From NCBI GenBank assembly GCA_002706065.1, contig PAJM01000017.1, positions 12,722 to 76,721 on the forward strand: a DNA stretch of 64,000 nt. The letters run 5' to 3'. The position numbers and the translations under genes are program-made. The notes under the pieces were generated by a model that saw only the letters and a program-made list of their open reading frames with translations, made no database searches and had not been told where the DNA came from. The DNA is from Methanobacteriota archaeon (GTDB lineage Archaea; Thermoplasmatota; Poseidoniia; Poseidoniales; Poseidoniaceae). Within the stretch, counting starts at the first letter, position 1. Each line of letters starts with the position of its first letter. Shown piece by piece: positions 20,213 to 48,635 of this stretch.

Positions 20213-20322
20213 TGTTTTTCCCCAACACTCACCAAGACATGAGCGAATATAATGATTGATGGTCATTTACACGATGAAACCTATTTATCTTCGTCCACAA
20301 GGACCATCTGGAGGGACTTTGT

Positions 20323-21177
20323 ATGACGGGCCGTATTCATTCCATCCAAGCGGAGGACACTGAATCTTTCATTGAGGCTTTTGATCAAATTGAGAACCAA
20401 GGCGAGGGCCGTCAAATTTTCATTTCTCGTTACCCTCAATCCAGATTGATTGATTTGCTTGACATCTCAAAAATGCAGTGCTATTGGATGACAACTGTCC
20501 AGGATACAGGCGTTCTTGAACCGAGTCTTGAGAAAATAAATCATTTCATAGAATCTTTGCTTCGCTCTGAATCAGGAACCATCTATCTCGAAGGTGCTGA
20601 ATGGCTCTTCTCATTGCACGGTTTTGATGCCGTTCAATCGATGATTCGCACATTAGCGGAAAAAGTCTCAATAAGTCAGTGGTCGATCTTCATTTCAATT
20701 TCAAGAGACAGTCTGGACATGCGTGAACGTTCTCGTTTTTATCGCGAAGCACCACTCTTTGAGGTCAATACGATTCAGCACAATGTCATCTCCGATGATG
20801 GGGATTCGGGCAACATCGACACGATGCAATCGGCATCGGTTGAGATGGATTTATCGGATGATGGTTCTCCAAAGTTGTTCCTCCTTACTCGATTACCCCG
20901 TTCGGGATTCAGCAAGAGGATTCTCCAACGACGTATCCTTCAATGGAGGAGGATGGGATTGGATACTTCGGACATCGAAGCGGTCTTGTATTTGCAAGAT
21001 GTTGATGAAATATATTCAAAATATCGAGGTGTCGAAGAACAAGTCCGGCGTGCGACGGAATTAGAACAACACGTACTCGAACATGTATCTGATAGCCATG
21101 AACGTACAATCGCATTGTTCCGTATACGTCAATTAACAGGTCTTGATGAACTTGAAAGAATCTACTTCTCAGATTGA
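20323..21177 (+). CDS. DUF835-like domain protein (archaeal family of unknown function) with a C-terminal extension
   Basis: ISRYPQS...YWMT...LEPSLEKINHFIESLL...TIYLEGAEWLFSLHGFDAV...ISISRDSLDMRERSRFYREA, which I recognise from memory (not checked) as the DUF835 consensus; divergent from the EF-hand gene. Confidence 0.55.
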   Translation: MTGRIHSIQAEDTESFIEAFDQIENQGEGRQIFISRYPQSRLIDLLDISKMQCYWMTTVQDTGVLEPSLEKINHFIESLLRSESGTIYLEGAEWLFSLHGFDAVQSMIRTLAEKVSISQWSIFISISRDSLDMRERSRFYREAPLFEVNTIQHNVISDDGDSGNIDTMQSASVEMDLSDDGSPKLFLLTRLPRSGFSKRILQRRILQWRRMGLDTSDIEAVLYLQDVDEIYSKYRGVEEQVRRATELEQHVLEHVSDSHERTIALFRIRQLTGLDELERIYFSD

Positions 21178-22728
21178 TTTGCGAAGCGGATTCTTCAACG
21201 TTGATTGAATGATTGACAACCAACTCGATTTTGTTAACTCGTCAGCTATTGAAATAATTTCATCGCTAGTACTGCGGTCAGCTCGACCTTCGAGAACGAC
21301 GTTATTCATGCATCGTATCATGGATTGAACACATGTTGAGGAAGGAGTTTCAATGATGGTGATGGCTCTGTGTGCTACGAAGGCTTCACAGGCAATCACC
21401 TCGGAGCAGCGTTCAATCGCTTGCAATAAATTCCAACTTGCTGTTGCACCCATACTCACATGATCTTCCTGGCCAGCAGAGGTTGTCGTTGAGAATGCAG
21501 TTCTTGGTGTTGAATGGCCATGCAACTCACCAAGTGCCGCAGCGGCTGCATACTGAACGATCATGAGGCCTGACTCCAATCCTGCATTATCTGCCAAAAA
21601 CGGTTTGATGGCAAGCCGATTTGGATCGAGCATTTGATCGATACGACGTTCACTCATTGAAGATAATTCAAACAATGCTAAACTCATTGCGTCGGATACG
21701 AATCCAAGTACCTCTGCATGAAAATTACCTTGGGACACGACTTCATGCGGACCGGGATCCACCGGGTCAGGGAAAATCAATGGATTATCTGTCGACGAAT
21801 TCAATTCAATTGTGACCGTTTGAATCAATTTGTGAAGCGATTCTTGTACTGGCCCGTGAACCTGCGGTATGCATCGAAACGAATACGGATCTTGGATTCG
21901 ATTGCATTCATGATGGTTTGATAGAATTGTCGAATCATCGAGAATTGCCCGAATCCTTTCAGCGACAAAGAGTTGGCCTAAATGTGGGCGGGTTCGATGA
22001 ATTCGGTCATCATACGGTGTTAACGTGGATTCAGTTGCATCGAGCGACATGGCTGCAACAATGTCTGCATAGGTCAACAATTGACGAAGTTGTTCAACAG
22101 CAATCGCTAACATTCCTGTTATGAGGCTGGTGCCATTGATGAGAGATAATCCATCTTTTGCGCGTAGAGTAAGCGGTGCGAGTTCACAACGCTGTATTGC
22201 ATCATAGGCCGATATGACTTCACCGTTGTACTCGACATTCCCTTCACCGACAAGAGCGCAGGCAAGATGAGAGAGTGGTGCTAAATCCCCACTAGCGCCA
22301 AGACTACCGATACGTGGAATAATCGGATGAATTGAATGATTGATGAACTGTTCGAGTTGCGAAATCACATCCGGATGACAACCCGAATGACCTTTGACAA
22401 GTGAATTAAGTCGCACGCACATCATTGCACGAACAATTTCTGTTGAGAGGTTGGGCCCTAAACCAGTTGCATGAGAGCGTACAAGATTAAGTTGCAATTG
22501 TTCAACATCATCTTGACTCACCCGTGTTTGAACCAGCGAGCCAAAACCAGTATTGATCCCATAAACCGTTTCATCTCCCTCGACGATTCGATCGACAACA
22601 CTTCGGGCCAATTTTACTTTGAGCATGGCTTCTGGAGCAACCTGGACTGTTGCTCGACCGTATGCCACATCATGAACATCAAGCGTGTTGACAGTTGTCC
22701 CATCCAGTGTCACAATCCGCTTATTCAT
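21169..22728 (-). CDS. hutH: Histidine ammonia-lyase (MIO-dependent)
   Basis: GSLGASGDLAPLSHLA contains the Ala-Ser-Gly MIO triad. ORF track frame 21169..22740; likely start at M5. Confidence 0.9.
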   Translation of the reverse strand: MNKRIVTLDGTTVNTLDVHDVAYGRATVQVAPEAMLKVKLARSVVDRIVEGDETVYGINTGFGSLVQTRVSQDDVEQLQLNLVRSHATGLGPNLSTEIVRAMMCVRLNSLVKGHSGCHPDVISQLEQFINHSIHPIIPRIGSLGASGDLAPLSHLACALVGEGNVEYNGEVISAYDAIQRCELAPLTLRAKDGLSLINGTSLITGMLAIAVEQLRQLLTYADIVAAMSLDATESTLTPYDDRIHRTRPHLGQLFVAERIRAILDDSTILSNHHECNRIQDPYSFRCIPQVHGPVQESLHKLIQTVTIELNSSTDNPLIFPDPVDPGPHEVVSQGNFHAEVLGFVSDAMSLALFELSSMSERRIDQMLDPNRLAIKPFLADNAGLESGLMIVQYAAAAALGELHGHSTPRTAFSTTTSAGQEDHVSMGATASWNLLQAIERCSEVIACEAFVAHRAITIIETPSSTCVQSMIRCMNNVVLEGRADRSTSDEIISIADELTKSSWLSIIQSTLKNPLRKSI

Positions 22729-24763
22729 GTACGCCACCATCCAATAACGTGTCGAGTATGGAATCCTCTACCAATTGTGGTATTGTGACTTGAAGTTGAG
22801 GATTAATGTCCATGGCTCTCTGAATGGACGTAATAGCGCCATGATTTCTAGCCCATGCTCGACGTGCTACACCGTTGGAAACATCCCAGTGGAGCATGGA
22901 TTCAAGGCGCCTCATCGAATCCTCTGTTCCATCGATAAGGAGTCCAAAGCCGCCATTGGATACTTCTCCCCAACCGACACCTCCACCATTATGGAGGCTG
23001 ACCCAAGTAGCTCCACGCATAGCGTCGCCTACGAAATTTTGTACTGACATATCAGCAGTCCACTGTGATCCATCCCCTATGTTGGCTGTTTCACGATAAG
23101 GTGAATCAGTTCCACTCACATCATGATGATCCCGTCCAAGGACAATCGGTGCTGAGATTCGACCATCGGCTACAGCTTGATTCATAGCAGCAGCGATTCG
23201 TGTACGTCCTTGTTCATCAGCGTAAAGAATTCGAGCCTTCGATCCAACGACCAGGGCATGTTGTTCTGCCTCTTGGATCCATTTGAGATTGTCCTGTATT
23301 TGCTGACGAATATCCTGATCGCTCTCTTCGTCGAGCATTTCTGCAAGCACTTGTTCAGCAATTTTGTCGGATTCTGCTAAATCTGAATCCAAACCAGATG
23401 AGCACACCCAACGGAACGGACCAAATCCACGGTCAAAACACAACGGGCCCATGATGTCTTCAACGTATGAGGGGTATTTGTAGGTGCCATCGGGTTGGAA
23501 AATGTCCGCTCCTGCACGTCCAGATTCCAGCAAGAATGCATTGCCATAATCCCAAAAGAACATGCCTTTTGAGACCAATGTATTGATTGCATCTACATGC
23601 CTGCAGAGGGATTGTTGCACCAATGTTCGAAATGTATCAGGTTGTTCATGCATCAGGTTCTGAGCTTCATCGAAGTCCAAACCAGCGGGGAAATAGCCCC
23701 CTTGGAATGGATTGTGAAGAGATGTTTGATCGCTTCCAAGATGGACAAATACATCACGCTCAACAATTCGTTCCCAGAGGTCAACAATGTTGCCTACGTA
23801 TCCGATTGAGGTTCCTTTCTTATGTTCTGATGCTGAAATCATGCTGTCGATGGCCTCATCGACGTCGTATGCTAATTGCTCAACCCAACCTTGTCGGTAC
23901 CGTTTTTCAGCAGCAATTGGATTAGATTCAGCAACAATACATGCTGCACCAGCGATGACTGCGGCTTTGGCTTGAGCACCCGACATTCCGCCTAGTCCTG
24001 ATGTGATGAATCGAAGACCACTCAAATCACTGTTTGAAGCAACACCAAATTTCATCCGGGCAGCATTCATCAACGTAATTGTCGTTCCATGAACAATCCC
24101 CTGAGGACCGATGTACATGTACGAACCTGCTGTCATTTGACCATACTGTGTAACCCCCATGGCATTCAGTCGTTCGTAATTCTCTGTTGAGGAATAATTT
24201 GGTATCATCATGCCGTTGGTGACAACCACCCGCGGAGCATCTTTCGACGAAGGGAAGAGCCCAAGTGGATGGCCTGAATACATCACAAGTGTTTGCTCGT
24301 CAGTCATTTCGGAGAGGTACTTCATGACAAGACGGTATTGTGCCCAATTTTGAAACACGGCACCATTTCCACCATAGGTGATTAATTCGTTAGGAAATTG
24401 AGCTACCCGCGGGTCAAGATTGTTGTCGATCATTAGCATAATTGCCGCAGCATGAGTTGAAACTGCGGAATATTCGTGTATTGGCCGTGCGCGAATGGTT
24501 TGCTGTGGGCGGAATCTATGCATGTAAATTCTACCTAATTCACGTAATTCCTTGAGGAATTCTTTACTCAATACTTCATGGTGATTGGGATCGAAATAGC
24601 GCAGTGCATTTTGCAATGCTAGGCGTTCTTCAATTACAGAGAGCACTCGTTTACGTACTGGTGCGTGATCGACTTCGGCATCAAGACCAGGGTGTGTCGG
24701 CAAGTCATCGGGCAAACCAAATGAGAAATCGCTGACCATTTTGCTCCCCCTACTTCGTCCCAA
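22721..24763 (-). CDS. hutU: Urocanate hydratase (long, eukaryote-like ~680 aa form)
   Basis: Extensive urocanase similarity (MIDNNLDPRVAQFPNELITYGGNG, NAD-binding region GLGGMSGAQAKAAV, HGGGVGWGEV); overlaps the hutH start. Confidence 0.9.
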   Translation of the reverse strand: MGRSRGSKMVSDFSFGLPDDLPTHPGLDAEVDHAPVRKRVLSVIEERLALQNALRYFDPNHHEVLSKEFLKELRELGRIYMHRFRPQQTIRARPIHEYSAVSTHAAAIMLMIDNNLDPRVAQFPNELITYGGNGAVFQNWAQYRLVMKYLSEMTDEQTLVMYSGHPLGLFPSSKDAPRVVVTNGMMIPNYSSTENYERLNAMGVTQYGQMTAGSYMYIGPQGIVHGTTITLMNAARMKFGVASNSDLSGLRFITSGLGGMSGAQAKAAVIAGAACIVAESNPIAAEKRYRQGWVEQLAYDVDEAIDSMISASEHKKGTSIGYVGNIVDLWERIVERDVFVHLGSDQTSLHNPFQGGYFPAGLDFDEAQNLMHEQPDTFRTLVQQSLCRHVDAINTLVSKGMFFWDYGNAFLLESGRAGADIFQPDGTYKYPSYVEDIMGPLCFDRGFGPFRWVCSSGLDSDLAESDKIAEQVLAEMLDEESDQDIRQQIQDNLKWIQEAEQHALVVGSKARILYADEQGRTRIAAAMNQAVADGRISAPIVLGRDHHDVSGTDSPYRETANIGDGSQWTADMSVQNFVGDAMRGATWVSLHNGGGVGWGEVSNGGFGLLIDGTEDSMRRLESMLHWDVSNGVARRAWARNHGAITSIQRAMDINPQLQVTIPQLVEDSILDTLLDGGVHE

Positions 24764-33472: not shown

Positions 33473-34513
33473 ATGTCAAGCACCATTGTTGAATGTGTTC
33501 CGAATATCTCAGAGGGTCGGGACCTTGAAAAGATCAATAGGATAGTCGACGCTGCTCGCCGAGATGGTGTGAAAATCCTTGGCGTTGAACCCGATCCAGA
33601 TTACAATCGGACTGTCATTACCTTTGCAGGTAGTCCTGCAGAGGTTGAAGAATCTGCAATCACATTGATTGAGACGGCAATTCATGAAATTGATATGCGC
33701 ACACACAGAGGTGAGCATCCGCGAATGGGTTGTGTGGATGTTTGTCCATTTATTCCAATCCGTAATATTTCAATGGACGAATGTGCTGAAATGGCTCACC
33801 GGGTTGCTACCAAAATTTCTCATCATGATGTCCCAGTGTTTCTTTATGGATTTGCGGCAGCAACAGAAGAGAGAACGCTGCTCTCGAAGTTACGAAAAGG
33901 CGAGTATGAGGGGCTCAAACAGCGCCTTTCTGGTTCGTCTGATGCACACGCTGATGCAACGATGATGCCAGATATGGGTTCAAACATTTGGTCTGAAACT
34001 TCGCAGAAAAGTGGAGCGATTACAATTGGAGCTCGCGATATCTTGTTGGCATACAACGTCAATATTGACGATTCAAATCCTTACGTCGCTCAGCAAATCG
34101 GGTCCATCGTACGAAGTTCTGGACGATTGCTAAAATCCGATGATCAAGAACGTAAATTTCGAACGAAAGGATTGCTTCAGCACGTTCAAGGGATGGGTGT
34201 TCCGCTTGAATCTCACAACATTAGTCAGGTCTCAATGAATCTTCAAAATTATAGAGTGACCAATCTGCATCACGCTTTTGATACCATTGATAGTTTATGC
34301 AAAAACATGAACAGTTCGACGAAGGGAAGTGAACTCGTTGGTTTGGTACCTCTTGAGGCCATGGTACAAGCAGGGCAATGGTACGGCGGAGAGGGGTGTT
34401 CTGAAAGGGAGTACATCGATATAGCAATCCAGAGGTTGGGGTTGGATTCAATTGGCCCATTTGACCCGAATAAGAGGATTATAGAATGGGCTATTGAGGA
34501 GGGTCAAGAATGA
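33473..34513 (+). CDS. Glutamate formimidoyltransferase (FtcD N-terminal-type domain, stand-alone)
   Basis: IVECVPNISEGRD matches the formiminotransferase signature; ~345 aa two-subdomain architecture. Confidence 0.85.
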   Translation: MSSTIVECVPNISEGRDLEKINRIVDAARRDGVKILGVEPDPDYNRTVITFAGSPAEVEESAITLIETAIHEIDMRTHRGEHPRMGCVDVCPFIPIRNISMDECAEMAHRVATKISHHDVPVFLYGFAAATEERTLLSKLRKGEYEGLKQRLSGSSDAHADATMMPDMGSNIWSETSQKSGAITIGARDILLAYNVNIDDSNPYVAQQIGSIVRSSGRLLKSDDQERKFRTKGLLQHVQGMGVPLESHNISQVSMNLQNYRVTNLHHAFDTIDSLCKNMNSSTKGSELVGLVPLEAMVQAGQWYGGEGCSEREYIDIAIQRLGLDSIGPFDPNKRIIEWAIEEGQE

Positions 34514-35142
34514 GTTGGGCAGACAAAACACTACGAGAATTTCAGGACGCACTTGCAAGTGATGCACCAACACCAGGTGGTGGTTCTGCAGCGGGTGTAG
34601 CCCTTGGTCAAGCCGCCGCATTAGCTGTTATGGTAAGCGACCTGACGCTTGCAAAGGAATCTTGCAAAGATGGGTGGTCTGTTTCTAAGCAAGTAAAAGA
34701 AACTGCTACTCCTTTACTCGATCAAGGTCTTGAGTTGGCAACAGAAGACAGCCAATCATTTGACGCTGTAGTCGACGCATTTCGTTTGCCAAAACAGACC
34801 GATGAACAAAAGGAAGTTCGTCGTGATTCAATACGAAAAGCAACACTTGGGGCCGCTGAGGTTCCATATCGTACGGCCTTATCAGCACTCGAACTTCTAC
34901 GTCTCCTTCCAGAATTAGCAAAGAAAGGAAATGGTAACGCAGCATCTGATGCGGGTGTTGCAGGATTGCTAGCGTCCGCAGCACTCAAAGGGGCTATTTT
35001 CAATGTGGAAATTAACCTACAATCCTTACCAGACAATTATGGTGTTGAAATGAGAAAACAATTACCATCCTTGATCGAGGATGGGCGCTTGTATTCAAGA
35101 CAGTGTATGGATGAAGTTCGATTGCGATTAACGGACAACTGA
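34510..35142 (+). CDS. Formimidoyltetrahydrofolate cyclodeaminase (FtcD C-terminal-type domain, stand-alone)
   Basis: Ala/Gly-rich helical protein TPGGGSAAGVALGQAAALA typical of the cyclodeaminase domain; 4-nt overlap with the formiminotransferase gene. Confidence 0.8.
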   Translation: MSWADKTLREFQDALASDAPTPGGGSAAGVALGQAAALAVMVSDLTLAKESCKDGWSVSKQVKETATPLLDQGLELATEDSQSFDAVVDAFRLPKQTDEQKEVRRDSIRKATLGAAEVPYRTALSALELLRLLPELAKKGNGNAASDAGVAGLLASAALKGAIFNVEINLQSLPDNYGVEMRKQLPSLIEDGRLYSRQCMDEVRLRLTDN

Positions 35143-40342: not shown

Positions 40343-41371
40343 TCATGTGTACATTTCAGAAATCTGCTTGTAAATTGCAAAGTCTCCAGATTCGACAAAC
40401 GCAGTAATCGAAGAGTCAGGCATGTTTCCGAGTTGCTCATCGATGATGTTGAAAAATTCACCACGTTGTTCATCACTTATAGCTGTAGGATCAGCTCCAA
40501 CTTCCTTGAACAATTCAAAACCATCGGACGCTAGGAATGCTTGAATTGCATCCTCAGGAAGTTCATCACCGAGTAAATCATTGACAATTGAAAAGAACTG
40601 GGAGAACAGTTCATCGGCCTCATCAATACTTGCGTCTTCCATTTCATCGGTTTCATCTTCGTCTTCCGATGCAGTATCAGCTTCAATGGGCTTGCTCATG
40701 AGTGAGCGCCGTTCAGCCATCAGTTCTTCAAGTTGAGGGACGAGAGCGCGTAATGCGTCTTTGTCTCCATTAGCTTTAGCCGATTTGTATTGCGGTTTGA
40801 GTTCTCTGAGAAGGTTTTCAACCACCGTCAGTCGGTCCGGTTCCTCTTCGTCAAGTAATTCTACAACAGGAGCGTTTCGAACTTCGTTCAGTGCGTCATC
40901 TCGTTCTTTTTTCCTGAGCACAATGATGTCTCGGTCGAGTTCATGCCCGAATCGGTCGGAATATCGATCCAAGAGTGATCCAGATTCACCGGATCCGAGT
41001 CGGTCAATCGCCCCGTATATTTGGGGGAGAGGTTTAGCGGAACGTTTTGCCCATAGATCACCATATTCATTCGATGGTTCCTCCACAGGTGCGGGAGCAG
41101 GTGTGGGGGCAGGGACCTGTGGTGCTGGCGGTTGCTCAACAGGCAATGGAGAAGGTGTTGGCATTGGTGCTGGAGGAAGTTGTGGCTGAGGCGATGGTTC
41201 TGGGATTGGCGCTGCAGGTAACGGTGGAAGTGCAGCCCCTGGTAGTGGGGGCAAATCACCCAATGGAGGCAAAGGAGAAGGTGGAGTTTGTGGAGTTTTG
41301 TTCTTCTTCCGACGTCGCATACACTCACCTCTATATTGACTGGAGGCGATTCTACCCTTGAACCTTACCAC
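40343..41371 (-). CDS. Hypothetical protein with a polyproline (LPPLP-type) N-terminal region, an acidic centre and two C-terminal tandem ~35 aa repeats; probable start at M18 (41320)
   Basis: PPSPLPPLGDLPPLPGAALPPLPAAPIPEP...; repeats FFSIVNDLLGDELPEDAIQAFLASDGFELFKEVG and FFNIIDEQLGNMPDSSITAFVESGDFAIYKQISEMY. Confidence 0.5.
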   Translation of the reverse strand: MVRFKGRIASSQYRGECMRRRKKNKTPQTPPSPLPPLGDLPPLPGAALPPLPAAPIPEPSPQPQLPPAPMPTPSPLPVEQPPAPQVPAPTPAPAPVEEPSNEYGDLWAKRSAKPLPQIYGAIDRLGSGESGSLLDRYSDRFGHELDRDIIVLRKKERDDALNEVRNAPVVELLDEEEPDRLTVVENLLRELKPQYKSAKANGDKDALRALVPQLEELMAERRSLMSKPIEADTASEDEDETDEMEDASIDEADELFSQFFSIVNDLLGDELPEDAIQAFLASDGFELFKEVGADPTAISDEQRGEFFNIIDEQLGNMPDSSITAFVESGDFAIYKQISEMYT

Positions 41372-41410: not shown

Positions 41411-42610
41411 TCACACCATTTTTGCCCAACCTTTGAGGCTTAGAAACGTAGCCGCAGATTCGGATACGTTTAGACGATCGCCTGCTGAAACATCGTGCTG
41501 GTCCTGTTCGAAACGAAGGACAGCATCGTCGACAATTATTTCCACATCAATCATTTTTTGGTTACCAAAGACAAAAGCTTCACTCAGTGCATCAAATGGA
41601 TCCCCTCCCTCAGCGTCAAGACGGTGGAGAGGGAATTCTGTAACCCTCATTCCAGTTTTCCCATGCAATGAAGTAGGCCAACGTATTTGCCGACGAACAT
41701 CAATAGTGACGACTTCATCGGTTTCACCTGCTGCTCCTAGTACGATTGAGGCATCGGATTTAACAAGATCAAGGAACAACCCTTGGTGTGCCCCTAACCG
41801 TGAAATTTGTCCATTGATTATGGATTGCCGTCGATCATCATGCAGAAACATATCTGCTAATTTTTGAATGCTTGCTGGTCCTTTTCCTGGCTTTCCTTCT
41901 CTTCGGAGATTCTCCTTCAATCCGAGATGCAGTTCTTTCATTATTCTTGGTGCATCTTCATCACCTTGAGCAATGGTGAGAAGTTTGTCAATGAGAGTGG
42001 GTATTTGGTTTCGTATCCGTTTGCTCCAGCCTTTTGCATTGGCATCGCCAAACCGCGTCAGACCACCTTGGACATCAACACCCTCGCCACGTATATGCGA
42101 AACCAACTCCCTTCTGGCTTCAGAATCCAAGTGAAACAACGATGGGTCGCGATAATGGAGATGGAATCCTCGATGACCGGAAAACGTCACTTGCAAGAAA
42201 GATTCATCAAATCCAAATTCAGGTTGAAGAAAATCATTCCAGAGTGCGTGCGCTTGATCTCGAATCACATCCAACATTGCTGGGAAATCACGATCTGTCA
42301 CGCCAGGCAAGTGGTCACCGTCCAAATCAAAAATTAAATCGGCCCCTTGCCACATTTTGTCATCCATTTTTAATTCGTACGGCTTTTGCCAATATGCCGT
42401 TGAATAGAAGCAAGAGTGCATGGCTCGTTCAGAGAGGAATTGACGTAAATCGGTCTCACTTCTGAACGATTTATGACGCAATGGCGGTGCACCACCAAAT
42501 GGAATAAACATCCATTCCCTTTTCGGCATTCTTGGGGGTCTCCAGAATGTAGAATTTTGATAGTAACGGCCAAATTTGTGAGCAAAGCGAGCCCATCCGG
42601 ATGAGGCCAT
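41411..42610 (-). CDS. priS: DNA primase small (catalytic) subunit PriS
   Basis: REWMFIPFGG...MHSCFYSTAYWQ...GADLIFDLDGDHL matches the archaeo-eukaryotic primase catalytic core. Confidence 0.8.
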   Translation of the reverse strand: MASSGWARFAHKFGRYYQNSTFWRPPRMPKREWMFIPFGGAPPLRHKSFRSETDLRQFLSERAMHSCFYSTAYWQKPYELKMDDKMWQGADLIFDLDGDHLPGVTDRDFPAMLDVIRDQAHALWNDFLQPEFGFDESFLQVTFSGHRGFHLHYRDPSLFHLDSEARRELVSHIRGEGVDVQGGLTRFGDANAKGWSKRIRNQIPTLIDKLLTIAQGDEDAPRIMKELHLGLKENLRREGKPGKGPASIQKLADMFLHDDRRQSIINGQISRLGAHQGLFLDLVKSDASIVLGAAGETDEVVTIDVRRQIRWPTSLHGKTGMRVTEFPLHRLDAEGGDPFDALSEAFVFGNQKMIDVEIIVDDAVLRFEQDQHDVSAGDRLNVSESAATFLSLKGWAKMV

Positions 42611-42646
42611 GTAGGCTGCTATGGTTGACAGTTTTTGAACGCAACC

Positions 42647-42856
42647 CTATTCAGTCTTCATGTAGAATTTCTCTTCGGTTTCCCCTACAACGGTGACTGT
42701 ATCTGCGCCGGTATGTTCGACGTAATGTTCCCAGCAGTAGTAGTGTTGATTGTGAACCATAGCCGAACCAAACGTGAGGCGTATACCACACGTATGGCAT
42801 CGTGGCCCAATCTCACCATTCGGGGCTTGTGCGAGTTGGACATGTTCATGTGGCAT
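42647..42856 (-). CDS. Small YHS/TRASH-like metal-binding protein
   Basis: CHTCG-x17-HYYCWEHY resembles the YHS/TRASH Cys-x2-Cys...YYFCSxxC pattern with the last Cys replaced by His. Confidence 0.45.
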   Translation of the reverse strand: MPHEHVQLAQAPNGEIGPRCHTCGIRLTFGSAMVHNQHYYCWEHYVEHTGADTVTVVGETEEKFYMKTE

Positions 42857-42913
42857 CTTCTCACCTGTTTGATGCTAATGGTCTGGGTTCTAAAATGTCT
42901 TGTTGAATTGTAG

Positions 42914-43384
42914 TTATTCCGGCATTGTACTCTTACGTACCCAATCCAACAAGTCCAATGCAACTTCACAAGATTCACTTACTTCGATGTGTTCATCGTC
43001 AAGATATTCCTTCAACACCTCGATCGCTTTAGGGTTGCCAATGGCCCCTAACGCTTCTGCAGCTTCATGGCGGACCATGACATGTTCGTTGGAATCGGAG
43101 AGAATATGAATCAGCGTGGGTATGGCATCGTCCATTTGCATTTGTCCTAATACATAGGCCAGTTCATGTCGTAAAAGAGCACTCTTTGAAGAAAATGCCT
43201 CGCACAGGGCTAAACATGACTCAGATGATCGTATGTTTCTCAGTTTGAACACAGCTCTCATGCGTTGGAACATTTTTTCTTCCTCGTTGAGGAGTGTGGA
43301 GCGTAATGTATCCAACTCGGTGAATTCTGATGCGGGCGCAGGATCTACCGAACCGTATTCACTCACTTCGGGGCGCTGAGTCAC
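42914..43384 (-). CDS. Half-length deoxyhypusine-hydroxylase-like HEAT-repeat protein with two His-Glu motifs (DOHH-like diiron-site half)
   Basis: By my recall of DOHH (not verified against a database): SVDPAP linker, LLRHELAYVLGQMQ and VMVRHEAAEALGAIGNPKAIEVL, then IEVSESCEVALD closely mirror one half of eukaryotic DOHH. Only one half (~156 aa) is present, starting 6 nt after the mqnD stop. Confidence 0.7.
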   Translation of the reverse strand: MTQRPEVSEYGSVDPAPASEFTELDTLRSTLLNEEEKMFQRMRAVFKLRNIRSSESCLALCEAFSSKSALLRHELAYVLGQMQMDDAIPTLIHILSDSNEHVMVRHEAAEALGAIGNPKAIEVLKEYLDDEHIEVSESCEVALDLLDWVRKSTMPE

Positions 43385-43390
43385 AATGTT

Positions 43391-44272
43391 TCACTCCACT
43401 GCGCCAATGAATGATAGACTCTCGACATCAAAGTCCTCTCGAATCATACCTAACTCTTGACCTTCTTTGAGGAATTGTCGTATTGAGGAACGACCTTCTG
43501 GTTTGTAGTCAATGGTGCGGTCGTTGACGTACATCGTTACAAATTTTTGATTTGTCTCATCGTCAATTCCACGACCCCAAGCCTTTGCAAATTCTAGCGC
43601 TTCTTCAGGATGCGTGATTGAATGCTCAATACTCATCTTTGTGTACATTGTAATATCTTCCATTATTTGTTGGCCAAGGTCACGACGCACTACGTTCCCA
43701 CCCAAGGGCATAGGCCAACCGTTGGTGCGTTCATTCCACCAAACACCAAGATCGATGAGGACATTCAAGTCGTGTTCTACATACGTCAGCTGACCTTCGT
43801 GGATGATGAGACCGCATTGATAGGTATCGTCGAGAATTCTTGGAATGATTTCATCAAATGCTACGACTTCAACATCTACATCACCCCATGCCAATCTGAG
43901 CCCAAGATATGCAGATGTTTTCAATCCAGGGATTGCAATCTTCGATAATTTCGCCTCTTCAAGACTCAAACCTTGCTTAGCGACGATCATTGGTCCATAT
44001 CCCTCACCCATTGATGCTCCACAATTCATCAAGGCATAATTCTCTGCGATGTCCGGATATGCATGAATGGATACTGCAGATACCTCAAGGTCACAGTTCA
44101 TTGCACGGTGGTTAAGAGTTTCTATGTCCTGAAGTTCGTGGACAAAATTGTAACCAGGCGTTGGAAACGCGTTCGTCGTCATGGCATGAAACATGAATGC
44201 ATCATCAGGATCTGGTGAGTGTCCGATGCGAACTATGAGGTTGCCATGTTCATCTCGTGGAAGATTCGCCAT
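43391..44272 (-). CDS. mqnD: 1,4-dihydroxy-6-naphthoate synthase MqnD (futalosine pathway)
   Basis: IGHSPDPDDAFMFHAM, IETLNHRAM, GLIIHEGQLTY, LGVWWNERTNGWPMPLGGNVVRRDL, HPEEALEF closely match the MqnD family. Confidence 0.85.
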   Translation of the reverse strand: MANLPRDEHGNLIVRIGHSPDPDDAFMFHAMTTNAFPTPGYNFVHELQDIETLNHRAMNCDLEVSAVSIHAYPDIAENYALMNCGASMGEGYGPMIVAKQGLSLEEAKLSKIAIPGLKTSAYLGLRLAWGDVDVEVVAFDEIIPRILDDTYQCGLIIHEGQLTYVEHDLNVLIDLGVWWNERTNGWPMPLGGNVVRRDLGQQIMEDITMYTKMSIEHSITHPEEALEFAKAWGRGIDDETNQKFVTMYVNDRTIDYKPEGRSSIRQFLKEGQELGMIREDFDVESLSFIGAVE

Positions 44273-44294
44273 GAACGTCCCAAGGACGTTTCAT
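44271..44294. repeat. Near-perfect palindrome ATGAACGTCC-CAA-GGACGTTTCAT spanning the mqnD start codon
   Basis: Read directly; 9/10 matching arm positions; the CAT at 44270-44272 is the mqnD ATG on the minus strand. Confidence 0.3.
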
Positions 44295-44378
44295 TCAAGA
44301 ACCAACCGACTCATTTTGAAAACAAAATTCACTCTCAATTAACGGATTGTTTATGTAATTGTTGAGTATGTTCAGTAC

Positions 44379-46637
44379 ATGGTAACAGGAGGTCGAATTC
44401 GAGATGTTCTCATTCTCCTTGTTGTCGTAGGTACTTTGTGCTGTTCTAGCACGGCATCCGCATCCAATGAACTCTTCTTTAATGAGGCGATTGAAGTTGC
44501 CGATGTAGACACTGGTATACGAACCATTGAAGTGGATGCATCTGGAAACGTATTTGCAACATTCGGATCAGTTTTGTACAAACTGTCGGACTCAGGTTCC
44601 GTTCTAGCAGAACGAACATTTGAGAAGGAAATTACGGCTACCGCCATTTCGCCAGATTTTACGAAATTAGCACTCACACTCCGTTCGGGTTCGAGTGGAG
44701 ACGATTCAATCTTTATTTTGTCAACTGGTGATTTGAGTACACAGGTTTCGAGTGATACCACACGTACAAACGCCTTCATCCTTGAGTGGTCACCAAACGG
44801 GGGTGATCTCTATTCAAATGATCCGAACGCAGGCATGATTCAATTGAACCGAGAGACACTTGCAGAAGACGTATCCTATCAAGGCAACCATACAGGAACA
44901 ATGGCTTGTGTGGACATATCCGGCAACAGTGGTGCAGTACTCACTGCAGATGAAAACGGATTGATTCAGTTGTGGAACAACGATGGTGATGTTATCCAAC
45001 ATGAATTTCAGCTCCAGTCATCAATCCTAGATTGTGCTATTGGATACAACGACCAATACTTTTCAGTGTCAACTCCAGAAGATGGGATCCGTAAGTGGAC
45101 ATTTTCAGGATCGGAACTTAAACCGATAGATGTTAATGGAGCGGAGAGGTACCAATTTACCACAAGCGGGGACAAGGTTATCGTTCACAAAAGCACACCT
45201 TCTCAGCACATTCTCGTGTATGATTATGTCAATGAGATATCTGTCAATCAAATCTCAATGTTCCACACGTTTGATGATTATGTGGTGATGTTTGACGGTG
45301 CTGGAACCATTTCCGATATTTTCCTTAATTCAAAGGTAGATTACATCGTGAAATACGGGACCTCAATAGAGCGTGTAGGTGTCGGAGCATCGGGAATCGA
45401 TACAGATGGTGATGGTGTCCCTGATTCTTTGGATGATGATGATGATGGGGACGGAATTGAAGACAATTGGGACCTCAATTGTGCTGACGTTGGAATTGCA
45501 TGCGATCTCCTTCCAGATGAAGATCTTGTTCGTTCCATAAATTTGAACATCAACAAGACCAACTTCATCGTTGAGCAGACATTCACATTCAATAAAGCCA
45601 CGTCAGCAAGCATCCGAGATTTGTCTCGCTTGTCGTTGGATAACGATGTACGATTATCTTCCGATGAAGCACAGCTCTTGGCAAGTACGATTTGTTCGAA
45701 CATTGATCAAGAAGCTGCAAGTACAGGTATAACATCCACCATAACCATCGAAAATGCTTCACTCAACTTCACACACATGGACTGTTCAATCGAACAAGGA
45801 ATGACGCTTGTCCCAACCAACGACAGGACCTCTCACATTCGATATTCGATATCGTTTGTCTATGACATCGAAACAACTCAACCATTGGATGGGACGGCTG
45901 TTGATGTTGAAAATCATCGATTCCCCAGTTCTGGAAGTGTTACTGAACTAAGTGATCAACACCCAATTCGCATAACAATAGGTGGGCCTACGATCATAAC
46001 GCAAGTGTATGTTCCGTGGCACATACAACAATCAGATGTAACGTTTAATCTCGAGTCGGTGAAAGAAGACAATGACAATCTAAATCCAAAAAATATACTG
46101 TCTTCACCTCTGACAATCGGAATCATTCTTGTTGGAATATTTGTTGTTGGATTTGTTGCTCAACGACTCTATGATCTCGTTTCTAAATCAGGTTATGACA
46201 TTGAATTGGATGACGAAGATGATGAAAATGATGCATCGGATGCTGATGAGTTAGACGACGACTACGAAGATGAAGCGTATTATCATGAAGAAGCGTTTGA
46301 AGAGGAGCCTGTTGAAGAAGCGGTGACTGAAACCGTAAAAAGGAGACCTGCGCGACGCAAAACCGTTGGCAAAACGTCGAAGCGCGTCCCCATTGATTCT
46401 TCAGAAGCAACTCAGGCAAAAGAGCTCCTTGAACAATCTTCCAACGAAGTAGTCCGTAAGCGTAGAGCACGACGATCTGAACAGGACCCTGGAACGAGTA
46501 AGCGAAGGAAACTGAGTGATGTTGAACCTAGCGATTCAAGACCGCGTAAACGGCGAGCAGTGCGGCGTGATGTTGCCAATGATGAGGAGATGGATGAGAC
46601 ACTGAAGCGCTTTGTTTCAGAATCACCAGAGGAATGA
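44379..46637 (+). CDS. Large surface protein: signal peptide, beta-propeller-like N-terminal region, TSP3-type Ca-binding repeats, C-terminal TM helix and an acidic then basic cytoplasmic tail
   Basis: Signal LILLVVVGTLCCSSTASA. Repeats DTDGDGVPDSLDDDDDGDGIEDNWD. TM helix ILSSPLTIGIILVGIFVVGFVAQ. Tail RKRRARRSEQ...RPRKRRAVRR. Confidence 0.7.
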   Translation: MVTGGRIRDVLILLVVVGTLCCSSTASASNELFFNEAIEVADVDTGIRTIEVDASGNVFATFGSVLYKLSDSGSVLAERTFEKEITATAISPDFTKLALTLRSGSSGDDSIFILSTGDLSTQVSSDTTRTNAFILEWSPNGGDLYSNDPNAGMIQLNRETLAEDVSYQGNHTGTMACVDISGNSGAVLTADENGLIQLWNNDGDVIQHEFQLQSSILDCAIGYNDQYFSVSTPEDGIRKWTFSGSELKPIDVNGAERYQFTTSGDKVIVHKSTPSQHILVYDYVNEISVNQISMFHTFDDYVVMFDGAGTISDIFLNSKVDYIVKYGTSIERVGVGASGIDTDGDGVPDSLDDDDDGDGIEDNWDLNCADVGIACDLLPDEDLVRSINLNINKTNFIVEQTFTFNKATSASIRDLSRLSLDNDVRLSSDEAQLLASTICSNIDQEAASTGITSTITIENASLNFTHMDCSIEQGMTLVPTNDRTSHIRYSISFVYDIETTQPLDGTAVDVENHRFPSSGSVTELSDQHPIRITIGGPTIITQVYVPWHIQQSDVTFNLESVKEDNDNLNPKNILSSPLTIGIILVGIFVVGFVAQRLYDLVSKSGYDIELDDEDDENDASDADELDDDYEDEAYYHEEAFEEEPVEEAVTETVKRRPARRKTVGKTSKRVPIDSSEATQAKELLEQSSNEVVRKRRARRSEQDPGTSKRRKLSDVEPSDSRPRKRRAVRRDVANDEEMDETLKRFVSESPEE

Positions 46638-47402
46638 GGGCATTTCCTTCAAGCCACAACAATTCGCTAGGAATTGGCGAAGACCGTCCACATGTTCATC
46701 ATCAAGACGATTGAAGACCTCACCAAAGTATCGATTCAAACGTTCCATTGACATGTCTGAATGGAGGTGTGCATGGAGAAGGACCTTTTCACGTGTCAAC
46801 GGGTTTTCTTCGAATGAACTAAGCCGTGAGAGGAGTGCTTGATGTGCTGCTTTAACAGCTTCAAGCGGTGTATCTTTACGTGCAGCAAAGACTCCGAAGA
46901 CCATTGGTTGACCAGTGAGATCGAGCCAAGCTTGCCCCAAGTCAAGCTGGACCAATTCAGGATTGGTTTTTGCTCGATCAAGTGCTCGATCACCAATGAG
47001 TAATGCTCCATCGCATCGTTCAAGCATTGTATCCAAATCAGGACCCATCTCAACAGGTCGAGGGTCGATTCCACGTTGCTTCAGAAGGAATTTGAGCAAA
47101 GCAACGGATGATGATGAATCAGTAGGCAGTGCGATATCTCGCATTTCTTCAAGTGGCCTGTTTCCAAACACGAGAACACTACCAACTTCTCCTTTGGAGC
47201 AAATTCCGATTTCTGGGACGAGTGCAAGTTCATCGCTGTGTTTGGCGTAATCAGCCGCCGGTATTGGTGCAAGGACACAATCTCTGCGTAGCAAGTGACC
47301 AGTAAGCCATGAGGGAGGAGCCGGTAGAACATGGTACGATTCATCCAAACCAACGAACAGTGGATCGCAATTCATGAATGCAACTCGACCAATGGTCTTC
47401 AT
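46623..47402 (-). CDS. mqnA: Chorismate dehydratase MqnA (futalosine pathway)
   Basis: GRVAFMNCDPLFVGL, SSVALLKFLLKQRG, GALLIGDRAL, QPMVFGVFAARKD fit MqnA; start at M9 of the ORF-track frame. Confidence 0.8.
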   Translation of the reverse strand: MKTIGRVAFMNCDPLFVGLDESYHVLPAPPSWLTGHLLRRDCVLAPIPAADYAKHSDELALVPEIGICSKGEVGSVLVFGNRPLEEMRDIALPTDSSSSVALLKFLLKQRGIDPRPVEMGPDLDTMLERCDGALLIGDRALDRAKTNPELVQLDLGQAWLDLTGQPMVFGVFAARKDTPLEAVKAAHQALLSRLSSFEENPLTREKVLLHAHLHSDMSMERLNRYFGEVFNRLDDEHVDGLRQFLANCCGLKEMPSFLW

Positions 47403-47435
47403 CCAACGGGGAGATTGTGTTAACATTGTTTCACC

Positions 47436-48635
47436 TTATGCCATGGGCAGCCGTTTAATGGGCTGTGGGGGACTGTATTCTTCAAATTCCGTGTATGTTG
47501 TGTTGCGTTGGATTGGGACACAGCCAGCGTTTCTCACCAACTTGGATAATTGTTGCCGATCGTGTGTGAGCGGAGTGGTTGAACCTGCCAGATGCATGAT
47601 GGATTCTTGTTGAACTGTACCATCAATGTCATCTGCACCGAATTGGAGTGCGAGTTCAGCCAACTCATCGCCAATGTTCATTCGATATGCTTTGATGTGA
47701 GGTATGCTATCCATCAATATTCTCGAAACCGCAATTACACGCAAAATTTCTTGTCCTGTTGATAATTGTGCCATCGGCAAACGAGTAGAATCTGGTAAAA
47801 ACGGATAGGGGACAAAGCACTGGAATCCGTTCGTTGTTGCTCCCAAGTCCCGAAGTTTGAGGATGTGGTCGACCCGCTGCGATGCTGTTTCAATGGTTCC
47901 AAATAGCATAGTACAATTGCTTGGAAGACCAATTTTGTGCGCAGTGTGATGGATGTCTAAGTATTCCTGGCTGGATTCTTTCCCGTTGCAAATAACGGCT
48001 CGGACATCATCATCAAGAATTTCTGCACCGCCGCCCGGAAGCGATGTGAGACCGGCATCTTTGAGTTGTTGAAGTGTCGATTCAATGCTGAGGTCCGACA
48101 ATTGAGCCAAGTGTTTGACTTCCACTGCAGTTAGTGCTTTAATCGAAAGATGCGGGTGTTCAGCTCGAATCCGTTTGAACAACTCGGCGTAGTGTTGTAC
48201 CGACCAATCAGGATGCAATCCACCAACAGAATGCACTTCAGTGACATACGGCGAGAATTTTGAGAGTTCTTCCAAATACTCTTCAACCGAGAGAGCGTAT
48301 GCATCTTTGGATCTCGGCCCTCGTCGGAACGCACAAAATCTGCAAGCGAGTACGCAGATATTGGTTTGATTAACATGGACATTTGAGTTAAAGTAGGCTC
48401 GATTTCCAAACATTGCTTGTTTGTGTAGGTGTGCAAGCCGCCCGAGTTGGAACAGGTTGGGTTCTGCGAAGAGTTGTAGTCCATCTTCATGACCTAAGCG
48501 TTGGTCTGAGAGAATCTTATCCACGATTGGCTGTAAGGTGCTGGGCCACAGTTCTTGACGAAGACTGTCTTTCAAATCAACTCTCCAATGCGGATTTCGG
48601 TCTGCTAACACGACCGTGGAAACCCACTCAGGCAT
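47436..48635 (-). CDS. MqnC/MqnE-family radical SAM enzyme (cyclic dehypoxanthinyl-futalosine synthase or aminofutalosine synthase)
   Basis: NICVLACRFCAF (CxxxCxxC), GGAEI..; 9-nt gap to mqnA. Confidence 0.8.
   Translation of the reverse strand: MPEWVSTVVLADRNPHWRVDLKDSLRQELWPSTLQPIVDKILSDQRLGHEDGLQLFAEPNLFQLGRLAHLHKQAMFGNRAYFNSNVHVNQTNICVLACRFCAFRRGPRSKDAYALSVEEYLEELSKFSPYVTEVHSVGGLHPDWSVQHYAELFKRIRAEHPHLSIKALTAVEVKHLAQLSDLSIESTLQQLKDAGLTSLPGGGAEILDDDVRAVICNGKESSQEYLDIHHTAHKIGLPSNCTMLFGTIETASQRVDHILKLRDLGATTNGFQCFVPYPFLPDSTRLPMAQLSTGQEILRVIAVSRILMDSIPHIKAYRMNIGDELAELALQFGADDIDGTVQQESIMHLAGSTTPLTHDRQQLSKLVRNAGCVPIQRNTTYTEFEEYSPPQPIKRLPMA

What the first reader, a model, noticed from the sequence alone, without database searches (positions are those of the whole stretch)
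42914..43384. Stand-alone half-size DOHH-like (deoxyhypusine hydroxylase-like) diiron HEAT-repeat protein in an archaeon
The 156-aa product carries near-verbatim DOHH blocks, by my recall of eukaryotic DOHH (not checked against a database). These are SVDPAP, LLRHELAYVLGQMQ and MVRHEAAEALGAIGNPKAIEVL with two His-Glu pairs, then IEVSESCEVALD. It corresponds to one of the two pseudo-symmetric halves of the ~300-aa eukaryotic DOHH. Eukaryotic DOHH builds its diiron site from four HE motifs, two per half, so this protein would have to homodimerise to form a full site. As far as I know, archaea are generally reported to lack DOHH homologues, though some contain hypusine. A half-DOHH would be either the missing hydroxylase or an ancestral single-half form of the fold.
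Basis: partly seen in the sequence, partly recalled or inferred. Interest (0 to 1): 0.85.

Follow-up and report, generated by a model that had tools for sequence, protein, structure and literature searches.

The report
Half-size deoxyhypusine hydroxylase in marine archaea
Marine Group II archaea carry a strongly conserved gene for exactly one half of the eukaryotic iron enzyme that completes the hypusine modification of translation factor 5A, an enzyme the literature says archaea lack, and two copies probably pair up to form the working enzyme.

Summary
Window 42914..43384 (-) encodes a 156-aa protein whose best solved relative is human deoxyhypusine hydroxylase (DOHH, 4d4z, E=1.3e-71). It aligns without gaps to both halves of DOHH: 45% identity to the N half and 48% to the C half. 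The two His-Glu pairs and the substrate-binding Gly are kept.

It is not a fragment. The same 155-167 aa gene is present in 98 Poseidoniales (Marine Group II) loci, always single copy. It starts within a few bases of the stop of an mqnD-like gene, and dN/dS is about 0.05.

An AlphaFold2 monomer model (pLDDT 89) has four HEAT hairpins and superposes on 4d4z (TM 0.83).

My best reading is a homodimeric, one-iron-per-subunit DOHH that hydroxylates deoxyhypusine on aIF5A. The dimer, the metal site and the substrate are all inferred. My one dimer-like model was of poor quality.

In trees the archaeal clade falls outside both crown eukaryotic half-clades and is about equidistant from them. That fits a pre-duplication form or a very old transfer.

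The invariant operon link to futalosine-pathway (menaquinone) genes is unexplained and supports a rival function.

IMG's automatic annotation already names the gene "deoxyhypusine monooxygenase", but no paper I could search describes it.

I rate it a new variant of a known kind, with interest 0.7.

The parts
42914..43384 (-). Coding sequence of the 156-aa half-size DOHH homologue. It has an N-terminal tail followed by four HEAT hairpins (8 helices).
   Evidence: ORF list. phmmer against PDB: human DOHH 4d4z at E=1.3e-71. Pfam HEAT_2 and HEAT_PBS. AF2 monomer pLDDT 89.4 with helices H20-32 through H133-152. Foldseek top hit 4d4z_A, TMq 0.83, rmsd 2.1 A. dN/dS 0.05-0.07 between orthologues.
43334..43351 (-). 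SVDPAP motif (aa 12-17) in the N-terminal tail. It matches the linker that precedes the C half of eukaryotic DOHH.
   Evidence: S12 to P17 are invariant in a 32-sequence family alignment. A DP[AS]P motif is present in 76/93 eukaryotic linkers but before the N half in only 1/93. The tail has pLDDT of about 52 in the monomer model, so it probably docks on a partner (the docking is inferred).
43163..43168 (-). First His-Glu pair, H73-E74. It is equivalent to human H56-E57 and H207-E208.
   Evidence: Ungapped alignment mapping. Invariant in the family. Roles of the human residues are taken from PMC9117371.
43064..43069 (-). Second His-Glu pair, H106-E107. It is equivalent to human H89-E90 and H240-E241.
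   Evidence: Ungapped alignment mapping. Invariant in the family.
43145..43147 (-). G80, equivalent to human G63 and G214, which are deoxyhypusine-binding residues.
   Evidence: Mapping. Invariant in the family. PMC9117371 lists G214 and its N-half counterpart, which it prints as G65; by the sequence the N-half residue is G63.
43391..44272 (-). mqnD-like gene (1,4-dihydroxy-6-naphthoate synthase family) immediately upstream on the same strand. It is the presumed operon partner.
   Evidence: Pfam PF02621, E=1.4e-62. PDB hits AF1704 (1zbm, 3e-65) and TTHA1568 MqnD (2czl/3a3u, 3e-49). It lies directly upstream on the same strand in 93 of 98 loci; 4 more loci are cut by a contig end.
46623..48635 (-). 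Context only: mqnA (chorismate dehydratase, 46623-47426) and a radical-SAM mqnE/mqnC-type gene (47436-48635). These are the rest of the local futalosine-pathway cluster.
   Evidence: PDB 7ahr chorismate dehydratase at 7e-26. NCBIfam MqnE at 418 bits and MqnC at 334 bits, both just below their cut-offs. In the rearranged loci L011-L017 these genes converge on the 3' end of the DOHH-like gene.

Best explanation
The gene encodes a single-half deoxyhypusine hydroxylase.

Proposed mechanism:
- Each 156-aa subunit is one four-hairpin HEAT domain. It carries one set of iron ligands (H73, H106, E107) and one set of deoxyhypusine-binding residues (E74, G80, E107).
- Two subunits associate around a two-fold axis, in the way the N and C halves of the ~300-aa eukaryotic enzyme pack around their pseudo-two-fold axis. 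This creates a non-haem diiron centre at the interface.
- The conserved N-terminal SVDPAP tail takes the place of the eukaryotic inter-domain linker.
[quoted passage not shown] These aerobic surface-ocean archaea would then carry true hypusine rather than deoxyhypusine.

What is shown: the sequence family, the fold of the monomer, retention of every residue known to be catalytic or substrate-binding, the stand-alone half-size architecture, purifying selection, and the distribution across Poseidoniales.

What is inferred: homodimerisation, iron binding, the substrate and the product.
For: - Human DOHH is the best solved relative by sequence (E=1.3e-71) and both halves align without gaps.
- H73/E74/G80/H106/E107 coincide with H56/E57/G63/H89/E90 and with H207/E208/G214/H240/E241. 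All are invariant in the family. Their roles in iron anchoring and deoxyhypusine binding are given in PMC9117371.
- The AF2 monomer is confident (pLDDT 89.4) and its best structural match is 4d4z, with TM 0.83, rmsd 2.1 A and 44% identity.
- One monomer corresponds to exactly one repeat unit of the eukaryotic protein including the linker. Query residues 22-151 map to the N half and 5-147 map to the linker plus the C half.
- The gene is 155-167 aa and single copy in 98 loci. dN/dS is 0.05-0.07.
- The core is more similar to either eukaryotic half (43.0% and 45.8%) than those halves are to each other (37.6%). This is expected if one subunit has to do the job of both halves.
- DHS homologues are reported in all sequenced archaeal genomes (PMC5178350). 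An ADC-agmatinase-DHS-homologue cluster is described in MGII/Poseidoniales MAGs (PMC10407285).
- IMG's automatic annotation gives the same name.
Against: - No dimer was demonstrated. A head-to-tail fusion folded without an alignment scored pLDDT 62 and matched 4d4z only at TM 0.33, with rmsd 20 A.
- No aIF5A or DHS gene lies in the window or within 6-10 kb of the gene in any of 98 loci.
- The gene is instead welded to mqnD inside a menaquinone (futalosine) cluster in 93 of the 94 loci where this can be judged. That is not what a translation-factor modifier would predict.
- Amino-acid analyses cited in PMC5178350 found mainly deoxyhypusine, not hypusine, in Euryarchaeota including Thermoplasmatales. 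Poseidoniales themselves have never been analysed.
- I did not verify the presence of aIF5A and DHS in these particular genomes.
Confidence: 0.6

Rival explanations
1. The fold and metal chemistry are the same but the substrate is different. The half-size diiron oxygenase has been recruited to the pathway it is transcribed with, for example an O2-dependent modification of a naphthoquinone/menaquinone intermediate downstream of MqnD. Alternatively it hydroxylates a free aminobutyl polyamine such as homospermidine, which resembles the deoxyhypusine side chain.
For: - The gene starts 6 nt after the mqnD stop here. It directly follows mqnD on the same strand in 93/98 loci, with 4 more cut by contig ends.
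- The pairing survives the inversion that separates the primase block in L011-L017. There, mqnA and mqnE converge on the gene's 3' end.
- The neighbours are MqnD, MqnA and MqnE/C types.
- There is no linkage to aIF5A or DHS anywhere.
- MGII archaea are reported to have a DHS-homologue 'SpeY' cluster that its authors interpret as homospermidine synthesis (PMC10407285).
Against: - To my knowledge, no step of the established futalosine route needs an oxygenase.
- 45-48% ungapped identity to human DOHH extends over the whole domain, well beyond the metal ligands, and includes the residues mapped to deoxyhypusine binding. This argues for an unchanged substrate.
- Gene order across this whole 20-kb region is conserved within the order, so adjacency may be inherited rather than functional.
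- L012 keeps the gene without mqnD.
Confidence: 0.15
2. This is a rival about origin; the function is the same. The gene is a secondarily truncated C half, with its linker, of a full-length eukaryotic DOHH. It was acquired by horizontal transfer into the Poseidoniales stem and later adapted to homodimerise. On this view it is not a relic of the pre-duplication enzyme.
For: - The N-terminal SVDPAP tail is the eukaryotic inter-domain linker motif. It occurs in 76/93 linkers but before only 1/93 eukaryotic N halves.
- C halves score higher than N halves against the family HMM, for example 177 against 145 bits.
- 15 columns are C-like and 8 are N-like.
- No homologue was seen in other archaea.
- Trans-domain transfer between MGII archaea and stramenopile algae has been proposed for another polyamine gene (PMC10407285).
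Against: - The archaeal clade is not nested in the crown C-half clade. M, N and C are each monophyletic in the observed NJ trees. C monophyly has 80% and M monophyly 73% bootstrap support with 30 well-behaved eukaryotes, and 'nested in C' is at most 10%.
- Eight conserved states are N-specific and nearly absent from C halves, for example E134 (N 0.68, C 0.01) and W148 (N 0.56, C 0.01). A C-half origin would require convergence at these positions.
- At consensus level N-C identity (61.6%) exceeds M-C (55.2%) and M-N (57.6%). This places the archaeal form outside both halves.
- GC content equals that of the neighbours, so any transfer is old.
Confidence: 0.35
3. The protein is a non-catalytic HEAT-repeat protein, or it works as a heterodimer with an unidentified second HEAT half encoded elsewhere in the genome.
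For: - NCBI names the proteins only 'HEAT repeat domain-containing protein' or 'hypothetical protein'.
- Whole genomes could not be searched for a paralogue.
Against: - The metal ligands are invariant in all 108 family members.
- All half-size hits form one orthologous family of 53-99% identity, and no second family appeared.
- There is one copy per locus.
- dN/dS is about 0.05.
Confidence: 0.05

Closest known systems
Eukaryotic deoxyhypusine hydroxylase (DOHH; yeast Lia1; human structure 4d4z/4d50; KEGG 'deoxyhypusine monooxygenase')
   Same: - HEAT-hairpin fold.
- HE motifs in the contexts LL(R/K)HE(L/V)AYVLGQ(M/L)Q and MVRHEAAEALGAIG.
- The ESCEVALD block and the SVDPAP linker motif.
- 45-48% ungapped identity to either half.
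- The residues for iron anchoring and deoxyhypusine binding are all kept.
   Different: - Half the length: 156 aa and 4 hairpins instead of about 300 aa and 8 hairpins.
- Two HE pairs per chain instead of four, so a true two-fold homodimer is needed where the eukaryotic enzyme has a fused pseudo-dimer.
- Archaeal host.
- Encoded in an operon with mqnD.
- The sequence is a mosaic of N-half-type and C-half-type states.
PBS-lyase / E-Z type HEAT-repeat proteins (Pfam HEAT_PBS PF03130 and HEAT_2 PF13646; CpcE/NblB; designed alphaRep proteins)
   Same: The repeat type and helical hairpin geometry are the same. Pfam places the protein in these families, since there is no DOHH-specific Pfam model. 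Foldseek TM is about 0.7.
   Different: - These proteins have no His-Glu pairs; they have 'REAA/YEAA' where DOHH has 'HEAA'.
- They bind no metal.
- Identity is 27-35%.
- NCBIfam NblB/CpcE scores are 21-30 bits against cut-offs of 300-600.
Single-domain precursors of internally duplicated, pseudo-symmetric enzymes (general evolutionary pattern)
   Same: One polypeptide equals one repeat unit of a pseudo-two-fold enzyme whose active site lies on the symmetry axis.
   Different: For DOHH, no half-size form has been described in the papers I could search. Whether this one predates the duplication is unresolved.

Membership tests
DOHH (deoxyhypusine hydroxylase) | Significant, specific sequence similarity to characterised DOHH, ranking above generic HEAT proteins | tested here: met
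   4d4z is the top PDB hit at E=1.3e-71. The next hit is a synthetic multi-repeat protein at 4e-39, whose score is summed over 6 or more repeats. The closest ~300-aa, two-half relatives that carry a source name or genomic context are eukaryotic (Phytophthora, Geosiphon; eukaryotic neighbours for P0120).
DOHH (deoxyhypusine hydroxylase) | His-Glu motifs that anchor the diiron centre: H56, H89, E90 and H207, H240, E241 in human | tested here: met
   H73, H106 and E107 align with both sets and are invariant in the family. One chain supplies only one set, so the second set must come from a second chain.
DOHH (deoxyhypusine hydroxylase) | Residues needed to bind the deoxyhypusine side chain: E57, E90, E208, E241, G63 and G214 | tested here: met
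   E74, E107 and G80 align with them and are invariant. The residue roles come from PMC9117371.
DOHH (deoxyhypusine hydroxylase) | Eight HEAT hairpins in one ~300-aa chain, arranged as two pseudo-symmetric four-hairpin domains | tested here: not met
   The protein is 156 aa with 8 helices, i.e. 4 hairpins. An mqnD-like gene ends 6 nt upstream. The architecture is the same in 98 loci.
DOHH (deoxyhypusine hydroxylase) | HEAT alpha-solenoid fold superposable on the DOHH crystal structure | tested here: met
   Foldseek rank 1 is 4d4z_A, with TMq 0.83, rmsd 2.1 A over 135 columns and 44% identity.
DOHH (deoxyhypusine hydroxylase) | Two domains packed so that both ligand sets form one diiron site (here, as a homodimer) | tested here: inconclusive
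   A head-to-tail fusion folded from a single sequence gave pLDDT 62 and pTM 0.54. It matched 4d4z only at TM 0.33. The model is too poor to count for or against. No multimer tool was available.
DOHH (deoxyhypusine hydroxylase) | Binds two Fe per active unit, activates O2 and converts deoxyhypusine-IF5A to hypusine-IF5A | not testable with these tools
   This needs biochemistry.
DOHH (deoxyhypusine hydroxylase) | Co-occurrence with IF5A and deoxyhypusine synthase in the same genome | not tested
   Neither gene is in the window or within 6-10 kb in 98 loci, and whole genomes could not be searched. The literature reports DHS homologues in all sequenced archaea (PMC5178350) and a DHS-homologue cluster in MGII MAGs (PMC10407285).
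Generic PBS-lyase HEAT-repeat proteins (CpcE/NblB type) | Reaches the curated family score and lacks metal-binding HE pairs | tested here: not met
   NCBIfam NblB scores 30 bits against a cut-off of 300, CpcE 25 against 330, and CpeY 21 against 600. HE pairs are present.

The most novel reading that the evidence does not exclude
The Poseidoniales protein is a surviving pre-duplication form of DOHH. It would be a true two-fold homodimer from which the fused, pseudo-symmetric eukaryotic enzyme arose by tandem duplication. Under this reading DOHH, and full hypusination, either originated in archaea or was exchanged with the eukaryotic stem before the last eukaryotic common ancestor (LECA). These abundant ocean archaea would then be the first known prokaryotes with a DOHH-made hypusine.
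Probability: 0.3. Interest if true: 0.85.

Novelty: new variant of a known kind. Interest (0 to 1): 0.7.

Why it matters
Reviews of hypusination state that archaea have deoxyhypusine synthase but no DOHH orthologue (PMC5178350, PMC8153317). Here a clear DOHH homologue is conserved throughout one of the most abundant archaeal groups of the surface ocean.

Its half size makes three questions directly testable with a small, easily expressed protein:
- Can a symmetric homodimer build the unusually stable peroxo-diiron centre of DOHH?
- Do these archaea carry hypusine rather than deoxyhypusine?
- Did the eukaryotic enzyme arise by duplication and fusion of such a half?

It would also be a minimal scaffold for studying or engineering this diiron chemistry.

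It does not explain the hypusine reported in Crenarchaeota, where no homologue is known.

Tried and rejected
- **Frameshifted or fragmentary full-length gene: rejected.** The mqnD-like gene ends 6 nt upstream. tblastn finds no second DOHH-like stretch in the 64-kb window or in any locus. The half-size ORF recurs in 98 loci.
- **Recent transfer from a particular eukaryote: rejected.** The closest full-length relatives are scattered eukaryotes such as Phytophthora and Geosiphon, plus unnamed metagenome contigs. The archaeal clade is not nested in either crown half-clade. GC content matches the neighbours.
- **The 247-271 aa hits as possible prokaryotic intermediates: rejected.** P0120 sits on a contig with an IP3-receptor-type channel and an eIF2B-epsilon-like gene. 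It is a truncated eukaryotic gene call.
- **Genomic linkage to aIF5A or DHS: none found.** The negative covers only 6-10 kb of flank.
- **Viral carriage: none.** There were no hits in IMG/VR.
- **Dimer geometry from a tandem fusion in AF2: low-confidence model, uninformative**.
- **The afdb50 fold library, meant to find half-size relatives with taxonomy, was unavailable**.
- **Asgard hit L018: rejected.** It is a 478-aa generic HEAT_PBS repeat protein without any HE pair.
- **The + strand ORF 42635..42913: rejected.** It is interrupted by stop codons in the orthologous loci and is spurious.
- **Distribution limit, unresolved.** The large searches list only the top 120-150 hits, and two-domain eukaryotic proteins and giant HEAT proteins outrank single halves. 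Half-size relatives below about 60% identity in other lineages would not have been visible. 'Confined to Poseidoniales' is therefore provisional.

Full report
**The sequence.** Window 42914..43384 on the minus strand is an open reading frame of 156 codons that begins with GTG. On that strand the upstream gene ends '...GAVE*'. The two His-Glu pairs are H73-E74 (nt 43163-43168) and H106-E107 (nt 43064-43069).

**Family assignment.** Pfam sees only generic HEAT families (HEAT_2 at 2.3e-24, HEAT_PBS at 1e-17) because it has no DOHH-specific model. NCBIfam gives only far sub-threshold phycobilin-lyase hits.
- Against PDB sequences, human deoxyhypusine hydroxylase (4d4z/4d50) is first at E=1.3e-71.
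- The query aligns twice and without gaps. Residues 22-151 align to the N half (116 bits). Residues 5-147 align to the linker plus the C half (125 bits).
- Identities are 59/130 for the N half and 69/143 for the C half. The two human halves share 50/126 over the same columns.
- H73/E74/G80/H106/E107 fall on human H56/E57/G63/H89/E90 and also on H207/E208/G214/H240/E241.
- According to PMC9117371, H56, H89, E90, H207, H240 and E241 anchor the diiron centre. E57, E90, E208, E241 and the two glycines bind the deoxyhypusine side chain.
- A generic Asgard HEAT_PBS protein recovered in the same scan has no HE pair at all. This shows what a non-DOHH repeat looks like.

**It is a real, stand-alone gene.**
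- A search of 5.8 billion proteins returned about a hundred clusters of 155-166 aa at 67-99% identity. They come from marine metagenomes and MAGs, some on contigs of up to 0.9 Mb. Next come eukaryotic DOHH sequences at about 50% identity.
- IMG names the short proteins 'deoxyhypusine monooxygenase'. NCBI names them 'HEAT repeat domain-containing protein' or 'hypothetical protein', from Candidatus Poseidoniaceae, Poseidoniales or Euryarchaeota MAGs.
- A scan of one genome per GTDB species found the gene in 17 MAGs labelled Poseidoniales, MGII or unclassified 'Euryarchaeota/Methanobacteriota archaeon', all syntenic with the window. A metagenome scan added 80 more loci.
- All 108 half-size proteins have at least two HE pairs, and 96 keep all four blocks.
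- There is one copy per locus and no second DOHH-like stretch in the window.
- Nei-Gojobori dN/dS is 0.05-0.07 for the pairs that are not saturated. GC content (46.5%) equals that of the neighbours.

**Structure.** With a 32-sequence family alignment, AlphaFold2 gives a confident monomer (pLDDT 89.4, pTM 0.79). It has eight helices, i.e. four hairpins, and a low-confidence N-terminal tail covering residues 1-19.
- Foldseek against the PDB ranks 4d4z first (TM 0.83, rmsd 2.1 A, 44% identity). Designed alphaRep proteins follow at TM about 0.7.
- To imitate a dimer I folded a direct head-to-tail fusion. By the alignments, this fusion reproduces the eukaryotic domain-linker-domain layout almost residue for residue.
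- Without an alignment the fusion model was poor (pLDDT 62). It matched 4d4z only at TM 0.33.
- The homodimer therefore remains an inference from homology and symmetry.

**Genomic context.**
- The upstream gene is of the MqnD type (PDB AF1704 at 3e-65, TTHA1568 MqnD at 3e-49).
- Further upstream on the same strand lie an MqnA chorismate dehydratase and a radical-SAM MqnE/MqnC-type gene. A poorly conserved 752-aa gene on the other strand sits between mqnD and mqnA.
- In 93 of 98 loci mqnD lies immediately upstream on the same strand. Four loci are cut by a contig end, and only L012 lacks it.
- The pair stays together in L011-L017, where the primase side is inverted and mqnA and mqnE converge on the 3' end.
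- No aIF5A or DHS gene lies in any locus.
- The context therefore does not support the hypusine reading. It raises a rival in which the oxygenase serves quinone or polyamine chemistry.
- I rank that rival lower for three reasons. Identity to DOHH spans the whole domain, including the substrate-binding residues. To my knowledge the known futalosine route needs no oxygenase. Gene order is conserved over the whole 20-kb region within this one order.

**Relationship to the two eukaryotic halves.** I split 93 full-length eukaryotic proteins into N and C halves with the family HMM.
- Over a 125-residue core the mean identities are: archaeal-N 43.0%, archaeal-C 45.8%, N-C 37.6%, N-N 41.2% and C-C 47.8%.
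- In NJ trees the archaeal, N and C groups are each monophyletic. With 30 well-behaved eukaryotes and 500 bootstraps, support is 73%, 69% and 80% respectively, and all three hold together in 57% of replicates. 'Nested in C' is at most 10%.
- The archaeal consensus is about equidistant from the N consensus (57.6%) and the C consensus (55.2%). Those two share 61.6% with each other.
- Conserved archaeal states are a mosaic. Fifteen columns are C-like (F39, S138, V141 and others). Eight are N-like, including E134 and W148, which are nearly absent from C halves.
- The SVDPAP tail matches the eukaryotic linker. It is found in 76/93 linkers and before only 1/93 eukaryotic N halves.
- An unrooted three-clade tree cannot distinguish 'sister to N+C' from 'sister to C'.
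- The data exclude a recent capture of a crown-eukaryote half.
- They favour a pre-duplication lineage only mildly, because under that view the N-like states need no convergence. An ancient truncated C half that later became symmetrical remains possible.

**Literature.**
[quoted passage not shown] It also states that Euryarchaeota, including Thermoplasmatales, showed mainly deoxyhypusine.
- PMC8153317 (2021) repeats that no archaeal DOHH orthologue has been found.
- Full-text searches combining DOHH or hypusine with Asgard, Poseidoniales, Marine Group II or metagenomes found nothing describing this gene.
- The only overlap is PMC10407285. It describes an ADC-agmatinase-DHS-homologue ('SpeY') cluster in MGII MAGs and proposes trans-domain gene transfer with stramenopile algae.

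**Verdict.** The observation and the identity call are correct. The protein is a DOHH-family member by sequence, fold and active-site residues, but it fails the eight-repeat single-chain architecture. It is best filed as a new half-size variant.
- Function as a homodimeric deoxyhypusine hydroxylase is the most likely reading (about 0.6).
- It is unproven, and the invariant mqnD linkage is unexplained.
- The distribution beyond Poseidoniales could not be examined properly. The large searches list only their top hits, and the AlphaFold-database fold library was unavailable.

Noticed in passing
window 42647..42856 (-): A 69-aa ORF with a Cys/His pattern that suggests a zinc ribbon (…PRCHTCG…YYCWEHY…). 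It is conserved without stop codons at 37-88% identity in the Poseidoniales loci. It always lies next to the DNA primase small-subunit gene (41411..42610) and moves with it when that block is inverted in L011-L017. It may be a small primase-associated protein. It has only weak sub-threshold Pfam (LIM) and NCBIfam matches.
   Followed up: partly
window 42635..42913 (+): A 92-aa ORF on the opposite strand overlaps the 69-aa gene. It is interrupted by stop codons in the orthologous loci, so it is a spurious ORF.
   Followed up: yes
window 43391..48635: A partial futalosine (menaquinone) cluster: mqnE/C-type radical SAM (47436-48635), mqnA (46623-47426) and mqnD (43391-44272), all on the minus strand. 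In the window and its nearer relatives it is interrupted by a fast-evolving 752-aa + strand gene (44379-46637, 26-50% identity between loci). That gene has an acidic and basic low-complexity tail and no significant Pfam family. It is absent from that position in L009 and in L011-L017.
   Followed up: partly
window 40343..41371 (-): A 342-aa protein with a proline-rich N-terminal third (PQTPPSPLPPLGDLPPLP…) and a very acidic C-terminal part. It has no Pfam family and is conserved at 32-81% identity beside the primase gene across the loci.
   Followed up: no
window 18185..20266 (-): A 693-aa protein with several EF-hand calcium-binding motifs (weak, sub-threshold per-domain Pfam hits). This is an unusual domain set for an archaeon.
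   Followed up: no
window 21169..24763 and 33473..35142: Histidine-utilisation genes: histidine ammonia-lyase type, urocanase, and a split formiminotransferase-cyclodeaminase. They fit the peptide and amino-acid heterotrophy ascribed to Marine Group II.
   Followed up: no
L012 3508..3990: This is the only locus out of 98 in which the half-size DOHH gene is not preceded by mqnD. It lies directly beside the divergently oriented small-ORF and primase block, so there it must have its own promoter.
   Followed up: partly
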